Program-made: the position numbers and the translations under genes | The notes under the pieces: generated by a model | What the model was told of the DNA's origin: nothing | Seen by the model: the letters and a program-made list of their open reading frames with translations, nothing else | The model's database searches: none | Part shown: positions 7,047 through 47,809 of the stretch, in pieces | How the letters are laid out: every line of letters starts with the position of its first letter | How positions within the stretch are numbered: position 1 is the stretch's first letter | Source: Bacteroidia bacterium | GTDB lineage: Bacteria; Bacteroidota; Bacteroidia; CAILMK01; JBBDIG01 | Direction of reading: 5' to 3' | Length of the DNA stretch: 64,000 bases | NCBI GenBank assembly: GCA_040880525.1 | Contig: JBBDIG010000045.1 | Span: forward strand, 9,266-73,265

Positions 7047-7478
7047 CTACATCAGCACATCCCAGGTATCCTCACTGCCCGTCCAGTCGCGGAATTTCTC
7101 CTTGCCACCACGGATTTCCCAATCGGAATCAATTGTGAGGCGGGAGCTGATGCCTCCGCGCGGATTGCAGATCATGACCAGCCGCAGGCGTTCGGGTTCA
7201 TAAACCTCCATCATTTGTTCATAAAAAATATTGATGAGTCGTTCGTACGATACGATGACATCCCGGAGCTGATACATGTATTGCTTCATGGACCGGAGTT
7301 CGATGATCTTTTTCTTAGGATAGAAAGTGATGTAGAGAGTCGCGAAATCCGGTTGCTCCTGCACTCCCAGAAATGTGAGTTCCGGAACCTTGATCTTTAT
7401 TTCGTAAGCGCCATTGGAGGGATTGGGAATCGCCTTCAGGATCTTTGGATCAATACGGTCAAATAGCTTTTTTTCCAT
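7047..7478 (-). CDS. QueF-family (NADPH-dependent 7-cyano-7-deazaguanine reductase, T-fold) homolog lacking the catalytic cysteine
   Basis: 143 aa. Aligns clearly with B. subtilis QueF: [23 protein letters not shown] vs [38 protein letters not shown] vs [22 protein letters not shown] vs TPRGGISI. The thioimide-forming Cys is Gly here, and the E-x-K motif is E-L-R. Confidence 0.8.
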   Translation of the reverse strand: [143 protein letters not shown]

Positions 7479-7544
7479 GCTTTTATTAAATGGGTATATA
7501 ATTTTTTTGAAGGGGCGAATTTAGGAGAGAAATACCGGCTTACG

Positions 7545-7578
7545 AAAAAAGCCTTCCAGCGGGCGCTGAAAGGCTTTT
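7545..7578 (-). terminator. rho-independent terminator downstream of the small lipoprotein gene (minus strand)
   Basis: On the minus strand: aaaagcctttcagcgcccgctggaaggctttttt, a GC-rich stem followed by a T6 run. A second hairpin (aatcgcccgttgcaggcgatt) lies immediately adjacent at ~7584-7604. Confidence 0.55.
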
Positions 7579-7725
7579 AATCGAATCGCCCGTTGCAGGC
7601 GATTTAAAACCATGAAAAAACTAACGTTGACTCCAGGTGAGCCTCTCTCACTTTCCCACCTGAGGTTGCCTTCCTTCTTGCGAAAGAATTGCCAAACTGT
7701 TTCAGTCCATTCATTTTTTTTATAT

Positions 7726-7932
7726 TTAATACTGAATCTCTTTTCCAGGCAAAGTAGCGTCTGCCTGAGCATCAGTATTTTCAATTGTGCTATAGGCCGG
7801 ATCTGCCGGTAAAGGATTATAAAACTGTTCAGATGCTGAACAAGAGCTAAACAGAATCAGCATCCAACATATCCCGTACAGGATGACCAAGGCTTTAAAG
7901 AAATTCCCGTGTTTCTTGGCTAAATTTTTCAT
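7726..7932 (-). CDS. small putative lipoprotein (68 aa)
   Basis: Signal peptide with lipobox-like LILFSSCSAS, followed by a short soluble tail. A terminator hairpin lies downstream. Confidence 0.5.
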   Translation of the reverse strand: MKNLAKKHGNFFKALVILYGICWMLILFSSCSASEQFYNPLPADPAYSTIENTDAQADATLPGKEIQY

Positions 7933-8200
7933 GGCGAATATATTTTTGTGTTGCGAAACATTTATACTAATAAGACAAACTACATAAGTAAATGTTCATT
8001 TTTATTCAGTATAAATACCTATATTAAAAGATATTCAATTGAAGTAAACCATTATCCTATATCAAGAAGGAGTTCGTCCCCGCCACAAATATACGTATTA
8101 ATTACTACCAAATATTAATGATCTACAACCAGGGTCATATTTAATTTTATGCTGGTCCAGGGGTTTCTGCCCCATTCTGTTCTTTCTGTAATTCTACCGC

Positions 8201-15537: not shown

Positions 15538-16602
15538 CTAAAACTCTTTAATAAAACGAAGAGTCCGTTCATCAAATGAAACCTCTTTATGCTCGTGAAA
15601 TTTATAAGTAATTGGAAGGTAGAAGAGCGGATGATTCTTGATAAGGCTAAAATGTTTCATCGTTTCCAGCCTCCGCAGATCCTTCTCAGTTGTAATAAGT
15701 ATTTTATTAGGATTATACATTTCCTTGTACCGAACAAGAATTTTTTCCAGATCCTTTTCTGAAAAGCGGTGGTGATCCTGGAATTCCATCAGGAAAACTT
15801 CCTTGCATTTGCGCTCCAGAAAAAATTTCATGGGAACAGGATTGGCAATTCCGGTAAACAGGAGAACACTGGTCCGGCTCAGTTCACGGGTTTCAGGAGG
15901 ATCAGTGGCGGGATCGGTGGCGTGCTGCAGTTCTTCATATTTAATAAATGAAAAATAAACCGGCTGGTGTGGGTACGGTTTCAAACGATCCAGCAATCGT
16001 CTTTCCTCAAAGGGCGAAAGCACGATCGGGTTTTTGGTGACAACTATAATGTCTGCTCTTTTGCGGCTGCCTCTTGGCTCACGGAGTCGTCCTGCCGGAA
16101 GCAGGAAACCTTCAAAAAATGGAAGGGAATAATCCGTCAGCAGAATATTGAGGCCCGGCTCTACCGCCCGGTGCTGGAATGAATCATCAAGAATTACCAC
16201 TTGCGTATCCTTCACTTCCTTCTTTAGCCGTTGGATGCCTGCCACCCGGTTTTCTGAAACTGCCACAGCAAGCTCAGGAAATTTCCGCTTGAGCTGATAA
16301 GGTTCGTCACCGGCATTCTGTGCGGTCGCTTTTTTATCTAAAAGATAATAGCCTTTTGTATTGCGCTTATATCCGCGGCTAATGACAGCGGGTTTGATTT
16401 TATTAGCATAACACAGTTTTACCAGGTATTCAACTGTGGGGGTTTTGCCCGTTCCTCCCACTGAAAGATTTCCTATACCTATCACAGGAAAGTCGAAGCG
16501 CGTACTTTTGAGAATTTTCCAGTCATACAGCTTGTTACGGCACCAAATGGCAATGCCATAAAAAAGTGAAAATGGAAGGAGAAGTAATTTTAGTATTTTC
16601 AC
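15538..16602 (-). CDS. lpxK: tetraacyldisaccharide 4'-kinase
   Basis: N-terminus ...FDFPVIGIGNLSVGGTGKTP (P-loop) and length of 354 aa are characteristic of LpxK. Confidence 0.9.
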   Translation of the reverse strand: MKILKLLLLPFSLFYGIAIWCRNKLYDWKILKSTRFDFPVIGIGNLSVGGTGKTPTVEYLVKLCYANKIKPAVISRGYKRNTKGYYLLDKKATAQNAGDEPYQLKRKFPELAVAVSENRVAGIQRLKKEVKDTQVVILDDSFQHRAVEPGLNILLTDYSLPFFEGFLLPAGRLREPRGSRKRADIIVVTKNPIVLSPFEERRLLDRLKPYPHQPVYFSFIKYEELQHATDPATDPPETRELSRTSVLLFTGIANPVPMKFFLERKCKEVFLMEFQDHHRFSEKDLEKILVRYKEMYNPNKILITTEKDLRRLETMKHFSLIKNHPLFYLPITYKFHEHKEVSFDERTLRFIKEF

Positions 16603-16636
16603 GCGCTAAAATTACAAATATTCATTCTACCCGGCT

Positions 16637-17761
16637 ATGAGCGCAGCTTTTCAGGACATCGTAACATTTCTTAACTCCGTAGCACCTCCTGCGCTTCAGG
16701 AGCAATATGACAATTCGGGATTACTCACCGGTAATCCGGGGACCAGGGTAAAAGGAGTCTTAATCGCCCTGGATGTTACCGAGGACATAATAGATGAAGC
16801 CATTGAAAAGAAATGCAATTTAATAGTGGCGCACCATCCCCTTATATTTAAAGGTATAAAAAGTCTGACAGGGCGAGACTGGGTGGAACGCACGGTCATT
16901 AAAGCAATAAAGAATGACATAGGAATATTGGCCGTACATACAAACCTGGACAATATTTTCAACGGAGTGAATGCCCGAATTTGCGAGCGGCTGGGAATCC
17001 GGGAGCGTGAAATACTTGCACCCAAAAATGGCGGTCTCATAAAGATCGTTACGTTTTGTCCCTCAGGCGCTGACGAAGATGGCAATTCCATTCCGCAAAA
17101 AGTTCGGGAAGCCATGTTTGCTGCAGGTGCCGGCCATATTGGCAATTATGATCACTGCAGCTACATCCTATCGGGCACAGGAACATTCAGAGCGGGCAAA
17201 GGTGCAGATCCTTTTGTTGGCGATCTGGAAAAGGAGCACCACGAGCAGGAGGAGCGAATTGAAACCATTGCTCCGCGCTACCTGCAACGGCAAATCATAC
17301 AGGCAATGATTGAGGCTCATCCTTATGAGGAAGTGGCGTATGATATTTATCCCCTGGAGAACGAGCATCCTCGTACCGGAGCTGGCATGATTGGAAATCT
17401 GGAAGCCCCGATTCCGGAGCATGACTTTATGCAGTGGCTGAAAGACCGGATGAATGTGAAAGTGATAAGGCATACGCAGCTCAGAGGCACTGATATCCAA
17501 AGGGTGGCAGTATGCGGAGGGTCAGGAAGTTTCCTGCTAGAGAAAGCCATCAGTGCCGGTGCGGATGTTTTTATAACCGGAGATTTTAAATACCACCAGT
17601 TTTTTGATGGGGAAGGAAATATCCTCATAGCAGATATTGGCCATTATGAAAGTGAGCAGTACACTATCCACCTATTGCACGAACTTTTAACTGAGAAATT
17701 CACTACTTTTGCACTCCGAAAAACGGAGCTTATCACTAATCCCGTAAACTATTTCTATTAA
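16637..17761 (+). CDS. Nif3-like dinuclear metal-centre protein (YqfO/GTP cyclohydrolase 1 type 2 family)
   Basis: 374 aa. N-terminal NIF3 half (LIVAHHPLIF, HTNLD), a PII-like insert, and C-terminal NIF3 half (GDFKYHQF, IADIGHYESE). Confidence 0.9.
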   Translation: MSAAFQDIVTFLNSVAPPALQEQYDNSGLLTGNPGTRVKGVLIALDVTEDIIDEAIEKKCNLIVAHHPLIFKGIKSLTGRDWVERTVIKAIKNDIGILAVHTNLDNIFNGVNARICERLGIREREILAPKNGGLIKIVTFCPSGADEDGNSIPQKVREAMFAAGAGHIGNYDHCSYILSGTGTFRAGKGADPFVGDLEKEHHEQEERIETIAPRYLQRQIIQAMIEAHPYEEVAYDIYPLENEHPRTGAGMIGNLEAPIPEHDFMQWLKDRMNVKVIRHTQLRGTDIQRVAVCGGSGSFLLEKAISAGADVFITGDFKYHQFFDGEGNILIADIGHYESEQYTIHLLHELLTEKFTTFALRKTELITNPVNYFY

Positions 17762-18513
17762 TGGACGCATCAGTTGAGAATAAACTGCAAGCGCTTTATC
17801 ACCTGCAACTTATTGACACCGAATTGGACAGGATCAAAAACATCCGTGGCGAATTGCCAATGGAAGTGAGCGATCTGGAAGACACAATTGAAGGATTGCA
17901 GACGCGCGTTGAGAAATTGCAGAATGATATTAACGATCTGACAAAAACCATTGAAGATCGTAAAAGCGGAATCAAAGAAAGTAAAAACCTCATTCAGAAG
18001 TACGAAGAGCAGCAGAATGATGTTAAGAACAACCGCGAATTCCTGGCGCTGACCAAAGAGGTTGAATTGCAAAAACTGGAGATCATGGCTTCTGAAAAGA
18101 AGATCAAGGAACACCAGCAGGATATTGAGGCCAAGGAACTGCTGCTCACCAAAACCAAATCTGAATTAGAAGATCGCAGCCGCGAGCTTGAAGGTAAGAA
18201 AGGTGAACTTGGAAGTATAATAGAAGATACTGAAAAGGAAACTTCAAGCCTGATAGCCAAGCGTGAGAAAGCATTGGCGGCTATTGACGACCGGCTTGAA
18301 GCCGCTTATGTGCGAATTCGCTCCAACGTAGTGAATGGCCAGGCAGTGGTTACTATTGAGCGTGAAGCATGCGGTGGTTGTTTCAGCCAAATCCCACCAC
18401 AGCGCCAGCTTGATATTCGCCAGCGCAAAAAAATAATTGTCTGCGAAAACTGCGGACGTATTTTCGTTGACAAGGATATGGCGATAGAAGTGGCTGACGA
18501 TGTGAAAGCATAA
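17761..18513 (+). CDS. coiled-coil protein with C-terminal C4 zinc-ribbon (COG1579-like, conserved Nif3 neighbour)
   Basis: Long heptad-rich region, then CGGCFSQIP...CENCGRIF. Start codon overlaps the stop of the Nif3 gene (ATGG at 17761). Confidence 0.8.
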   Translation: MDASVENKLQALYHLQLIDTELDRIKNIRGELPMEVSDLEDTIEGLQTRVEKLQNDINDLTKTIEDRKSGIKESKNLIQKYEEQQNDVKNNREFLALTKEVELQKLEIMASEKKIKEHQQDIEAKELLLTKTKSELEDRSRELEGKKGELGSIIEDTEKETSSLIAKREKALAAIDDRLEAAYVRIRSNVVNGQAVVTIEREACGGCFSQIPPQRQLDIRQRKKIIVCENCGRIFVDKDMAIEVADDVKA

Positions 18514-47278: not shown

Positions 47279-47809
47279 TTAAAATTTTGAAAATCCCAGT
47301 TGCCCGCCCTGCTTGGGCGTAGACAGTTCTTCTTTCAACTGTAACATTTGCAGAGCCGCCAAAGCAGCTTCCTCGCCTTTGTTGCCGTGCTTCCCGCCTG
47401 CCCGCTCTGTCGCCTGCTCCATAGTATCTACCGTCAGGACGCCAAAAATAAACGGCTTGTTGTGGACACTGCTGAGTTGCATTATGTGATTGGCGACAGC
47501 ATCGCAGATATAGTGGAAATGAGGCGTTTCGCCTTTAACGACACAGCCAATGCAGATCACTGCATCAGCCTTCGCAAATTTGGAAAGATAATACGCTCCG
47601 AGCGGAAGCTCAAAAGAACCGGGTACACTTCTTTTCGTGATATTGGCTTCAGGAATGCCAAATTCGGAAAGGATTTTTTCCGCTCCCGTAACCAGGGAAT
47701 TAATGATTTCCTCGTGCCATTGAGCGTAGACGATCCCGAATTTTTTTTCCTTTATTTTCGGAAGTAAACCAGAAGGAGAGAAAGAGCCGGATTGTCCTGC
47801 AGTACTCAT
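47279..47809 (-). CDS. ribH: 6,7-dimethyl-8-ribityllumazine synthase
   Basis: 176 aa. FGIVYAQWHEEIINSL...AVICIGCVVKGETPHFHYICDAV...GVLTVDTMEQATERAG matches the lumazine synthase core. Confidence 0.9.
   Translation of the reverse strand: MSTAGQSGSFSPSGLLPKIKEKKFGIVYAQWHEEIINSLVTGAEKILSEFGIPEANITKRSVPGSFELPLGAYYLSKFAKADAVICIGCVVKGETPHFHYICDAVANHIMQLSSVHNKPFIFGVLTVDTMEQATERAGGKHGNKGEEAALAALQMLQLKEELSTPKQGGQLGFSKF

What the first reader, a model, noticed from the sequence alone, without database searches (positions are those of the whole stretch)
7047..7478. QueF (preQ0 reductase) homolog with catalytic Cys replaced by Gly
The ORF aligns residue-by-residue with unimodular QueF across the substrate pocket and the NADPH-binding E-x-K-x-x-K motif region. 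However, the thioimide-forming Cys of the SLCP(K/V)TGQPD block reads FLGVQEQPD, and the motif Lys is Arg (ELRSMK). A Cys-less QueF cannot carry out canonical nitrile reduction. It may be a 7-deazaguanine-binding pseudoenzyme or a neofunctionalised paralog. It sits among polysaccharide-synthesis genes rather than queuosine genes.
Basis: partly seen in the sequence, partly recalled or inferred. Interest (0 to 1): 0.6.

Follow-up and report, generated by a model that had tools for sequence, protein, structure and literature searches.

The report
Cysteine-less QueF paralog tied to methionine cycle
This small gene looks like the queuosine enzyme QueF but belongs to a large, uncharacterised cysteine-less sister family. 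In other bacteria and in many phages that family sits with the methionine/SAM-cycle genes, so it probably acts on a folate rather than on a queuosine precursor.

Summary
Window 7047-7478 (-) encodes a 143-aa unimodular QueF homolog in which the thioimide-forming Cys loop reads [10 protein letters not shown]. Gly38 (GGA) or a one-residue deletion takes the place of Cys55. This is not an error. All 120 closest homologs have TFLGV, synonymous sites are saturated while pN is 0.14-0.18, and the protein falls in a broad Cys-less clade with its own signature (TFxG, QPD, ELKSLK, SYER, PRGG). The anchoring Glu, the acid Asp and the NADPH motif are kept.

No queuosine gene lies near any of 177 related loci. 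In 39 of 80 bacterial loci the gene adjoins B12-dependent methionine synthase. In 27 of these it lies between the two halves of a split metH, with a SAM-I riboswitch upstream of the cluster (10 of 11 tested). Elsewhere it adjoins thyX or thyA-folA. At least 195 viral contigs carry it, often beside SAM synthetase, SAH hydrolase or SAH nucleosidase, and once as MetK-X-MetH-AhcY.

Best reading: a neofunctionalised NADPH-dependent T-fold enzyme of folate/methyl-cycle metabolism. It may reduce the N5-bound one-carbon unit of tetrahydrofolate, like a methylenetetrahydrofolate reductase (MTHFR). The exact reaction is unproven. I found no published description.

The parts
7047..7478 (-). CDS of the Cys-less QueF-like protein ('X'), 143 aa, ATG start, TAG stop
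   Evidence: ORF. (Pfam QueF, E 8.5e-17). (TIGR03139 83.2 bits, below the cutoff of 86.9). (closest structure is B. subtilis QueF). (exact match P0001, plus 2348 homologs).
7365..7367 (-). Gly38 codon GGA, at the place of the QueF thioimide-forming Cys55 (loop [10 protein letters not shown], one residue shorter than [10 protein letters not shown])
   Evidence: TFLGV is present in all 120 closest homologs. G38 is invariant in 34 diverse family members.
7347..7355 (-). Q42-P43-D44 (QPD). D44 corresponds to the QueF general acid Asp62.
   Evidence: alignment. Q42 and D44 are invariant in A2. D is present in 65 of 74 non-Cys representatives.
7284..7301 (-). E60-L-R62-S-M-K65: QueF (NADPH-binding) motif E(S/L)K(S/A)hK, with K->R at the third position in this sequence
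   Evidence: The motif definition is in PMC5372742. Among non-Cys representatives: E 65 of 74; K 53 or R 10; K 64 of 74.
7239..7250 (-). S77-Y78-E79-R80 (SYER), in place of QueF F95-H96-E97-D98. E79 is the T-fold substrate-anchoring Glu. R80 is specific to the Cys-less clade.
   Evidence: S77, Y78, E79 invariant; R80 at least 90%. (R in 53 of 74 non-Cys representatives, against D/A/E/K in Cys-type QueFs).
7152..7160 (-). R107-G108-G109 (PRGG), shared with QueF (TPRGGIS)
   Evidence: invariant.
7479..8200 (-). Upstream non-coding gap before the gldC-like gene. It holds no known riboswitch. It contains a 68-aa lipoprotein-like ORF (7726-7932) and two terminator-like hairpins.
   Evidence: no Rfam family at gathering score; the best hits have E 0.68. 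(hairpins 7843-7825 and 7553-7537)..

Best explanation
The gene encodes a real, strongly constrained member of a large Cys-less sister clade of unimodular QueF. I call the protein X.

X keeps the T-fold, the Glu that anchors the 2-amino-4-oxo-pyrimidine edge of a purine or pterin, the acid Asp and the NADPH-binding QueF motif. It has lost both QueF cysteines, so it cannot form the thioimide and is not a preQ0 nitrile reductase.

Shown by genomic association: the clade belongs to folate-dependent methionine/SAM (activated-methyl-cycle) metabolism, not to queuosine synthesis.

Inferred mechanism: X binds a tetrahydrofolate in the old preQ0 pocket. NADPH delivers a hydride to the one-carbon unit on N5. 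That carbon is topologically equivalent to the exocyclic carbon on C7 of 7-deazaguanine, which QueF reduces. The most likely reaction is 5,10-methylene-THF (as its 5-iminium) to 5-methyl-THF. This would be a flavin-free MTHFR-like reaction that feeds methionine synthase. An iminium needs no covalent Cys activation.

My probabilities: about 0.8 that X is a folate or methyl-cycle protein and not a queuosine enzyme; about 0.3 for the specific MTHFR-like reaction.
For: Conservation:
- TFLGV is present in 120 of 120 close homologs.
- Mean identity is 77% across phyla.
- pS is 0.8-1.0 against pN 0.14-0.18.

Clade:
- 34 diverse members share invariant G38, Q42, D44, K65, S77, Y78, E79, R107, G108, G109.
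- Cys-type QueFs form a separate clade that contains no G-type member.
- E78, K83, D62, E97 and R125 equivalents are kept in 63-65 of 74 non-Cys representatives.

Fold: the AF2 model (pLDDT 71.5) is closest to B. subtilis QueF 4fgc/4f8b, TM 0.70-0.72.

Bacterial context:
- 39 of 80 loci are next to metH.
- 27 lie between metH-N (S-methyl_trans) and metH-C (Pterin_bind + B12 + activation domain), on the same strand, overlapping by up to about 35 nt or with gaps of up to about 160 nt.
- 12 are next to a metH on the opposite strand, in Kangiellaceae/Pleionea and in Chitinophagales.
- A SAM-I riboswitch lies directly upstream of metH-N in 10 of 11 split-metH loci tested, and upstream of the divergent metH in L002 and L013.
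- metF follows in 4 loci.
- thyX is upstream in 4 deltaproteobacterial loci.
- thyA-folA is divergent from a 47%-identical member.

Phage context:
- 195 IMG/VR contigs carry the family.
- In the 80 loci kept, MetK occurs in 17, AhcY in 9, Pfs-like in 11 and APRT in 10, mostly immediately adjacent.
- L101 has contiguous MetK-X-MetH-AhcY.
- A 45%-identical member lies in X-HNH-MetH.
- In 80 AhcY-centred viral loci, X is present in 11 and sits directly upstream of AhcY wherever the intervening sequence is available (10 loci; L212 is cut by the contig end).
- Phage hallmark genes are nearby.

No queC/D/E/tgt homolog occurs in 2.55 Mb of these loci.

Precedents:
- T-fold proteins bind pterins as well as purines (PMC5699537).
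- Flavin-free MTHFR (Mfr) transfers hydride directly from NADH (PMC11094777 abstract).
Against: - No biochemical data exist, and no docking was done. The N5/C7 equivalence is a chemical-topology argument only.
- X co-occurs with a bona fide MetF in one operon (L035, L045, L062, L066; TIGR00676 above cutoff). An MTHFR role would be redundant there.
- No case was found where MetF replaces X in situ (0 MetF in 160 viral loci).
- About half of the bacterial loci, including this window, show no methionine or folate neighbour.
- One phage group places X between DNA polymerase and prohead protease.
- The thyX and thyA-folA contexts fit a methylene-THF-producing enzyme, or a general folate reductase, at least as well.
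- The AF2 model is only of moderate confidence, and the active site lies at a subunit interface that was not modelled.
Confidence: 0.5

Rival explanations
1. X is another folate/pterin NADPH-reductase, not an MTHFR. Candidates: 5,10-methenyl-THF to 5,10-methylene-THF (like the FolD dehydrogenase run in reverse); a repair reductase for oxidised 5-methyl-THF or quinonoid dihydrofolate; or a DHFR-like enzyme.
For: - The conserved pocket and NADPH features are the same.
- These roles explain the thyX and thyA-folA neighbours, which use methylene-THF.
- They avoid redundancy in the metH-N/X/metH-C/metF operon, which would then encode consecutive steps.
Against: - FolD and FolA are near-universal, and FolA sits right next to X in L173, so redundancy remains.
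- The commonest neighbours by far are methyl-cycle genes (metH, metK, ahcY), not thymidylate genes.
- A repair enzyme seems a weak payload for a phage.
Confidence: 0.2
2. X is a reductive methionine synthase. Homocysteine's own thiol replaces the lost enzyme Cys and adds to the 5-iminium of methylene-THF. NADPH then reduces the S-CH2 adduct to give methionine + THF. This would be a B12- and Zn-independent analogue of thymidylate-synthase chemistry.
For: - The phage blocks X-MetK-AhcY (L113, L117, L128, L132, L135) would then form a complete SAH->Hcy->Met->SAM cycle.
- Cys->Gly plus a shortened loop opens space exactly where QueF's thiol attacks.
- X directly precedes AhcY, the homocysteine producer, wherever the junction is intact (10 of the 11 AhcY-centred viral loci that have X).
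Against: - Compact phage contigs carry X right beside MetH (L101, L168-171). In 27 bacterial loci X is co-transcribed inside metH. Two isofunctional enzymes side by side are unlikely.
- There is no precedent, and no conserved thiol-activating metal ligands (no invariant Cys or His).
- The family is rare: 357 of 185,579 species genomes for the close subfamily. That is odd for so useful an enzyme.
Confidence: 0.07
3. X is a non-catalytic partner. It binds folate and/or NADPH as a scaffold, regulator or substrate-handing subunit for methionine synthase or SAH hydrolase. One example would be bridging the two halves of split MetH.
For: - The gene sits exactly at the Hcy-domain/pterin-domain break of split metH.
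- Cross-phylum identity is very high (70-78%), as expected for a protein with many interaction surfaces (T-fold decamer).
- The catalytic Cys is lost.
Against: - X also accompanies full-length MetH (Gammaproteobacteria, L101).
- X occurs in phages that have AhcY or MetK but no MetH.
- The acid Asp, the anchoring Glu and the NADPH-motif Glu/Lys are kept across 30-60%-identical members. That is the pattern of an active site.
Confidence: 0.1
4. One reading: X is a 7-deazaguanine (preQ0/preQ1)-binding pseudoenzyme, or a paralog that still works in queuosine or 7-deazaguanine metabolism.
For: - The closest characterised homolog is QueF.
- The preQ0-anchoring Glu and the Asp are retained.
- Phages do use QueF family proteins for 7-deazaguanine DNA modification (PMC10516641).
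Against: - No queC, queD, queE or tgt/dpdA homolog lies in 2.55 Mb around 177 loci plus the window. In contrast, the canonical QueF of phage Dp-1 sits in queF-queC-queD-queE-folE-queT-tgt.
- Cultured phages hold only canonical QueFs, 27-35% identical to X.
- F95->Ser, H96->Tyr, D98->Arg and the shortened loop remodel the pocket.
Confidence: 0.06
5. Sequencing error, pseudogene or chance ORF.
For: None beyond the missing Cys.
Against: - GGA differs from TGY at two positions.
- The sequence is identical in a public MAG record (P0001).
- 120 of 120 homologs share the motif.
- Purifying selection is strong.
Confidence: 0.01

Closest known systems
[quoted passage not shown]
   Same: - Same T-fold domain, about 31-34% identity, TM 0.70-0.72.
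- Keeps Asp62, Glu97, Glu78/Lys83 of the QueF motif, and PRGG.
   Different: - No Cys55 (Gly or deletion) and no Cys99.
- F95-H96-E97-D98 becomes S-Y-E-R, and the loop is one residue shorter.
- A different, conserved C-terminal tail (DSDW..RGG.E.F.DW).
- Below the TIGR03139 cutoff.
- Never found next to que genes.
QueF-L (crenarchaeal archaeosine synthase, 5JYX)
   Same: A QueF paralog that abandoned nitrile reduction, with a T-fold decamer type fold (Foldseek E 1e-4).
   Different: QueF-L keeps the Cys (thioimide) and has lost the NADPH site (PMC5699537). X shows the opposite pattern: the Cys is lost and the NADPH motif is kept. Identity is 11-12%.
GTP cyclohydrolase I (FolE)
   Same: Sister T-fold family that binds a purine/pterin in the equivalent pocket.
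   Different: 13-16% identity. X has no invariant Cys or His that could form the FolE zinc site. X carries the QueF NADPH motif.
MetF, and flavin-independent Mfr (methylene-THF reductases)
   Same: The proposed reaction and pathway position are the same: supplying 5-methyl-THF to MetH. Like metF, X is found in metH operons behind SAM riboswitches. Mfr shows that the reaction can run by direct NAD(P)H hydride transfer without flavin.
   Different: There is no homology. MetF and Mfr are (beta/alpha)8 barrels of about 300 aa, whereas X is a 143-aa T-fold. X coexists with MetF in some operons. The activity of X is untested.
YitJ-type bifunctional homocysteine S-methyltransferase/MTHFR (NF006396)
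   Same: Same gene order and logic. In YitJ a homocysteine-binding S-methyl_trans module is followed directly by an MTHFR module. In 27 loci metH-N (S-methyl_trans) is followed directly by X.
   Different: YitJ is a fusion with a MetF-type barrel. X is a separate T-fold gene and is followed by the pterin/B12/activation part of MetH.

Membership tests
QueF (preQ0 reductase) | Homology to the QueF T-fold domain | tested here: met
   Pfam PF14489, E 8.5e-17. PDB QueF, E about 1e-15. Foldseek best hits 4fgc/4f8b.
QueF (preQ0 reductase) | Catalytic Cys55 (B. subtilis numbering) that forms the thioimide | tested here: not met
   Gly38 or a gap lies at that column. There is no Cys in residues 1-103. 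The Cys is absent in all 120 close homologs. PMC5372742 excludes such sequences as non-QueF.
QueF (preQ0 reductase) | Asp62 and Glu97 | tested here: met
   D44 and E79 align to them. Both are invariant in the clade.
QueF (preQ0 reductase) | QueF motif E(S/L)K(S/A)hK(L/Y)(Y/F/W) | tested here: inconclusive
   The window protein reads [8 protein letters not shown]. E, L, S, h, K and the final Y fit; the third position is K->R and the seventh is Q. Most relatives read ELKSLKxY. NADPH binding itself was not tested.
QueF (preQ0 reductase) | Reaches the curated equivalog score (TIGR03139 QueF-II) | tested here: not met
   83.2 bits against a cutoff of 86.9.
QueF (preQ0 reductase) | Genomic association with queC/queD/queE/folE/tgt | tested here: not met
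   tblastn with the Dp-1 QueC, QueD, QueE and TGT proteins found nothing in 2.55 Mb (177 loci + window), and only one FolE, 6 kb away in L063. 30 window ORFs have no que domain. Whole genomes could not be checked.
QueF (preQ0 reductase) | NADPH-dependent reduction of preQ0 to preQ1 | not testable with these tools
   Needs an enzyme assay or queF complementation.
QueF-L (archaeosine synthase) | Retains the thioimide Cys and lacks the NADPH-binding QueF motif | tested here: not met
   X shows the opposite pattern. The definition comes from PMC5699537.
GTP cyclohydrolase I (FolE) | Zinc-binding Cys/His residues | tested here: not met
   No Cys or His is among the invariant or nearly invariant columns of 34 family members. 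Foldseek identity to FolE is 12-16%.
MetF/Mfr methylene-THF reductases | Homology to the MTHFR (beta/alpha)8 barrel (PF02219 / TIGR00676) | tested here: not met
   X hits only QueF in Pfam and NCBIfam. The true MetF in L035 scores 306 bits on TIGR00676. X could be at most a functional analogue.
MetF/Mfr methylene-THF reductases | Catalyses 5,10-CH2-THF + NAD(P)H -> 5-CH3-THF | not testable with these tools
   Inferred only from context and from chemical analogy.

The most novel reading that the evidence does not exclude
X is a minimal, cofactor-free reductive methionine synthase. Homocysteine's thiol takes the place of the lost QueF cysteine and adds to the N5-iminium of methylene-THF. NADPH then reduces the adduct to methionine + THF. 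The three-gene phage blocks X-MetK-AhcY would then be self-sufficient methyl cycles that need neither B12, nor MetE, nor MetF.
Probability: 0.07. Interest if true: 0.97.

Novelty: new variant of a known kind. Interest (0 to 1): 0.72.

Why it matters
- Databases name these proteins 'preQ(1) synthase' or '7-cyano-7-deazaguanine reductase'. That name is almost certainly wrong for a clade of hundreds of 50%-identity clusters.
- The clade appears to be an unrecognised component of the methionine/SAM cycle. It is co-directional with split metH downstream of a SAM riboswitch, and it travels with MetK, AhcY and MetH in marine-type phages.
- If it is a T-fold, flavin-free folate C1 reductase, it adds a third unrelated solution to the MTHFR step (or a new folate reaction). 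It would also explain what phages gain from these 'QueF' auxiliary genes.
- It would give a clean example of a covalent-catalysis enzyme re-tooled by deleting its nucleophile.
- The prediction can be tested directly with one small recombinant protein and E. coli metF/metE-metH/queF mutants.

Tried and rejected
- **Sequencing error or shifted Cys:** rejected (no Cys in residues 1-103).
- **Riboswitch or RNA element upstream of the window gene:** none. The window copy also has no metH, metF, thyX or canonical queF within 64 kb, and no que/fol/met domains in the 30 ORFs checked.
- **Cultured phage genomes (INPHARED):** only canonical QueFs at 27-35% identity.
- **PHROGs:** only a generic 'GTP cyclohydrolase' family.
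- **Domain fusions as Rosetta stones:** only a Lar fusion, plus a FliM fusion that looks like an assembly chimera.
- **In-situ replacement of X by MetF in phage AhcY/MetK modules:** no MetF in 160 viral loci, so this test was uninformative.
- **A2 alignment for a viral scan:** too divergent, gave an error.
- **Literature:** eight full-text searches and five papers read found no description of a Cys-less QueF paralog linked to MetH or MetK. The GapMind 2026 preprint and the MetJ-regulon paper do not mention it.
- **Simple replacement of MetF or FolA:** rejected as a general rule, because X coexists with each.
Full report
**1. Observation.**
Window 7047-7478 (-) is a 143-aa ORF. It matches Pfam QueF (PF14489, E 8.5e-17). 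It matches NCBIfam TIGR03139 'QueF-II' at 83.2 bits, just under the curated cutoff of 86.9. It also matches the three B. subtilis QueF crystal structures at E about 1e-15.

In the HMMER alignment [14 protein letters not shown] lies against [15 protein letters not shown]. Gly38 is opposite the thioimide-forming Cys55, and the loop is one residue shorter. MAFFT instead puts the gap on the Cys column, so the Cys is either replaced or deleted.

Other active-site positions compare as follows (QueF -> this protein):

| QueF residue | This protein |
|---|---|
| Asp62 | D44 |
| Glu97 | E79 |
| Glu78 / Lys80 / Lys83 | E60 / R62 / K65 |
| Phe95-His96 | S77-Y78 |
| Asp98 | R80 |
| Cys99 (protective) | L81 |

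The Gly codon is GGA at 7367-7365, two changes away from TGY. The only Cys in the protein is C104.

**2. Not an artefact.**
The identical protein is in a public Bacteroidia MAG (P0001), and 2348 homologs were found. All 120 best homologs (70-83% identity) read TFLGV...QPD. A 24-sequence alignment has 77% mean column identity. Against ten orthologs, synonymous sites are saturated (pS 0.8-1.0) while pN is 0.14-0.18. That indicates strong purifying selection.

**3. The family.**
An exhaustive HMMER search of 1.84 billion cluster representatives gave 1026 clusters at E<=1e-3. Among the best 150, the full-length members split into two groups.
- Cys-type QueFs read FTSLCPxTGQPDF...FHE.
- A larger Cys-less group reads E-x-TF-x-G-xxx-QPD[FY], ELKSLKxY, R....SYER, PRGG.

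In 34 diverse Cys-less members (30-61% identity to the window protein) the invariant residues are G38, Q42, D44, L61, K65, S77, Y78, E79, P95, R107, G108 and G109. In a neighbour-joining tree all Cys-type tips fall in one clade that contains no Gly-type tip. The motif Lys80 is Lys in 53 and Arg in 10 of 74 non-Cys representatives. The Arg in this window is therefore a minority variant.

The QueF specialists define the family by Cys55 + Asp62 + Glu97 + the QueF motif, and they discard sequences lacking any of these as non-QueF (PMC5372742 section 3.4). By that rule this clade is not QueF.

**4. Structure.**
AlphaFold2 gives a T-fold (beta-beta-alpha-alpha-beta-beta) with mean pLDDT 71.5. The C-terminal 23 residues are unreliable. 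Foldseek ranks B. subtilis QueF first (E 1e-9, TM 0.70-0.72), then GTP cyclohydrolase I, bimodular QueF and QueF-L.

**5. The window.**
The neighbours are an NAD-epimerase, GT4, Wzy_C, GT2 (convergent with X), a GldC-like protein and further GT2s.

There is no metH, metF, thyX or second queF in the 64 kb. No que, fol or met domain occurs in 30 ORFs surveyed. There is no Rfam family and no riboswitch in the 720-bp upstream gap. The window alone says nothing about function.

**6. Bacterial relatives.**
A scan of one genome per species found 357 genomes with a close relative, and 80 loci were kept. They include:
- Bacteroidota: Chitinophagales, Cytophagales, Crocinitomicaceae/Flavobacteriales, Bacteroidales.
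- Gammaproteobacteria: Kangiellaceae, Pleionea.
- Deltaproteobacteria: Syntrophorhabdus.
- 'Bacillota' MAGs.

All are 69-79% identical to the window protein.

I called ORFs in these loci and clustered them. The only widely recurrent neighbour is B12-dependent methionine synthase, in 39 of 80 loci.
- In 27 loci X lies between a about 335-aa metH-N (Pfam S-methyl_trans) and a about 890-aa metH-C (Pterin_bind, B12-binding_2, B12-binding, Met_synt_B12). All three genes are on one strand, overlapping by up to about 35 nt or separated by gaps of up to about 160 nt.
- In 12 loci X is next to a metH on the opposite strand (full-length, about 1225 aa, in most; split in L002 and L008).

Rfam finds a SAM-I riboswitch (62-89 bits; gathering score 44.4) immediately upstream of metH-N in 10 of 11 split-metH loci tested. 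It also finds one upstream of the divergent metH in L002 and L013. A bona fide metF (TIGR00676, 306 bits) follows metH-C in four loci. In four deltaproteobacterial loci thyX (TIGR02170) is the upstream gene.

More distant Cys-less members give similar contexts:
- P0133 (47% identity) is divergent from thyA-folA.
- P0142 (45%) lies in X-HNH-MetH on phage-like contigs.
- P0175 (39%) overlaps a ThrC-like gene after dapB-dapA-dapD.

**7. Phages.**
IMG/VR holds at least 195 contigs with a relative, and 80 loci were kept. Clustering and Pfam gave these neighbours:

| Neighbour | Loci (of 80) |
|---|---|
| SAM synthetase (MetK) | 17 |
| SAH hydrolase (AhcY) | 9 |
| PNP_UDP_1 MTA/SAH-nucleosidase-like protein | 11 |
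| Adenine-type phosphoribosyltransferase (APRT) | 10 |
| Small 4Fe-4S ferredoxin | 5 |
| DUF2452 protein | 14 |

Most of these are directly adjacent to X. Typical orders are GT2-APRT-MetK-X-Pfs-NT5C-epimerase and X-MetK-AhcY.

On a 273-kb contig (L101) MetK, X, a full-length five-domain MetH and AhcY are contiguous. Hallmark phage genes lie nearby: DNA polymerase, prohead protease, exonuclease, PhoH, ribonucleotide reductase and endolysin.

I ran a reciprocal survey centred on viral AhcY (257 contigs, 80 kept). X is present in 11 loci, eight of them on contigs not seen before. Where the intervening sequence is available (10 loci; L212 is cut by the contig end), X ends about 20-60 nt before AhcY, or has a ferredoxin in between. 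MetK is present in 7 loci and MetF in none.

As a control, phage Dp-1 shows what a real QueF context looks like: queF-queC-queD-queE-folE-queT-tgt. With those proteins as queries, 2.55 Mb around 177 X loci plus the window contain no QueC, QueD, QueE or TGT. They contain a single FolE, 6 kb from X.

**8. Interpretation.**

*Shown:*
- X is a conserved Cys-less QueF paralog.
- It keeps the substrate-anchoring Glu, the acid Asp and the NADPH motif.
- It is genomically coupled, across phyla and in phages, to the activated methyl cycle (MetH, MetK, AhcY/Pfs) and to other folate C1 enzymes (ThyX, ThyA-FolA). It is not coupled to 7-deazaguanine synthesis.
- In Cytophagales and Crocinitomicaceae it lies, co-directionally, between the metH halves downstream of a SAM riboswitch.

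*Established knowledge:*
- T-fold enzymes bind pterins as well as purines through this Glu.
- In the GTP cyclohydrolase I reaction, N7 of guanine becomes N5 of the pterin. C7 of 7-deazaguanine therefore corresponds to N5 of a folate.

*Inferred:*
- A tetrahydrofolate sits in the old preQ0 pocket. NADPH delivers a hydride to the carbon attached to N5, which is the position of QueF's nitrile/imine carbon.
- The 5-iminium form of 5,10-methylene-THF is already electrophilic. No covalent Cys is needed, and the product would be 5-methyl-THF, the substrate of MetH.
- Direct NAD(P)H-to-methylene-folate hydride transfer without flavin has a precedent in Mfr (PMC11094777).
- The gene order metH-N then X mirrors YitJ-type fusions of a homocysteine-binding domain with MTHFR (NF006396).
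- In L101 the four contiguous genes would be four different steps if X supplies 5-methyl-THF.
- The clade-specific Arg80 could bind the folate's carboxylates. This is speculative.

I give about 0.8 to 'folate/methyl-cycle enzyme, not queuosine' and about 0.3 to the MTHFR-like reaction.

**9. Against, and rivals.**
- X shares an operon with MetF in four loci and neighbours FolA in another. It is therefore not merely a replacement for either.
- A methenyl-to-methylene reductase, or a reductase that repairs oxidised folate, would fit the thyX/thyA contexts and would avoid redundancy with MetF (0.2).
- A reductive methionine synthase, in which homocysteine supplies the thiol, would make X-MetK-AhcY a closed cycle. 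However, it is hard to reconcile with X sitting beside MetH in compact phage contigs and inside metH operons (0.07).
- A non-catalytic MetH/AhcY partner is possible, but the conserved catalytic-type residues argue against it (0.1).
- The 7-deazaguanine pseudoenzyme reading has no contextual support (0.06).
- About half of the bacterial loci, this window included, and one phage group (DNA polymerase-X-prohead protease) give no functional hint.

**10. Novelty.**
Sources annotate these proteins as preQ(1) synthase or 7-cyano-7-deazaguanine reductase. Eight full-text searches and five papers read turned up no description of a Cys-less QueF clade, or of its link to MetH, MetK or AhcY. The library lacks most subscription journals, so absence is not proof.

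I class X as a new variant of a known kind: a T-fold NADPH enzyme with a new, still unproven substrate.

**11. Limits.**
- No whole-genome co-occurrence could be computed.
- The AF2 model is monomeric and of moderate confidence.
- Neighbour names not checked by a profile (ferritin-like, LepA, RibE, Tpx, GNAT, ArgG) rest on my reading of the sequences.
- Some IMG/VR contigs may be cellular.

Noticed in passing
window 7726-7932 (-), and hairpins at 7843-7825 and 7553-7537 (-): A 68-aa ORF with a lipoprotein-like signal peptide (…LILFSSC…) lies in the 720-bp gap between X and the gldC-like gene. It has no NCBIfam match. Two terminator-like hairpins lie in the same gap, so X probably has its own promoter downstream of 7537.
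   Followed up: partly
L101 8938-15226 (the same contig as L178; IMG/VR UViG_3300020442_000005, 273 kb): A contiguous MetK - X - full-length MetH - AhcY block sits on a giant viral contig. It is a phage-borne activated methyl cycle.
   Followed up: partly
L168-L171 (e.g. L168 4321-7672): Phage-like contigs carry X, an HNH endonuclease and an 848-aa MetH that lacks the AdoMet reactivation domain.
   Followed up: partly
L088 5899-6318, and 13 other viral loci (cluster c8): A about 140-aa DUF2452 protein lies directly downstream of X in many phage loci. Its function is unknown, and no homolog occurs in the bacterial X loci.
   Followed up: partly
L028-L079 (27 loci), e.g. L029 6830-11171: In Cytophagales, Crocinitomicaceae and Parvicellaceae, metH is split exactly between the homocysteine-binding and pterin-binding domains. 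A SAM-I riboswitch lies in front, and X occupies the split.
   Followed up: yes
L130, L134, L137, L138, L159, L179, L185: A 78-109-aa single-cluster 4Fe-4S ferredoxin (Fer4_13) sits immediately after X in several phages, in some cases between X and AhcY. It hints at a redox partner, but the role is unexplained.
   Followed up: no
L014, L023, L029, L039, L044 versus the window: X is 70-78% identical across Bacteroidota, Gammaproteobacteria, Deltaproteobacteria and 'Bacillota' MAGs, although synonymous sites are saturated. This suggests lateral transfer (perhaps by phage) together with very tight constraint.
   Followed up: partly
window 15538-18513 and 47279-47809: LpxK, a NIF3/DUF34 gene followed by a zinc-ribbon gene, and lumazine synthase (RibH) are present. 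They are ordinary housekeeping genes. In six of the Flavobacteriales loci a riboflavin-synthase-like gene lies immediately downstream of X on the opposite strand; I read that from the sequence and did not check it with a profile.
   Followed up: no
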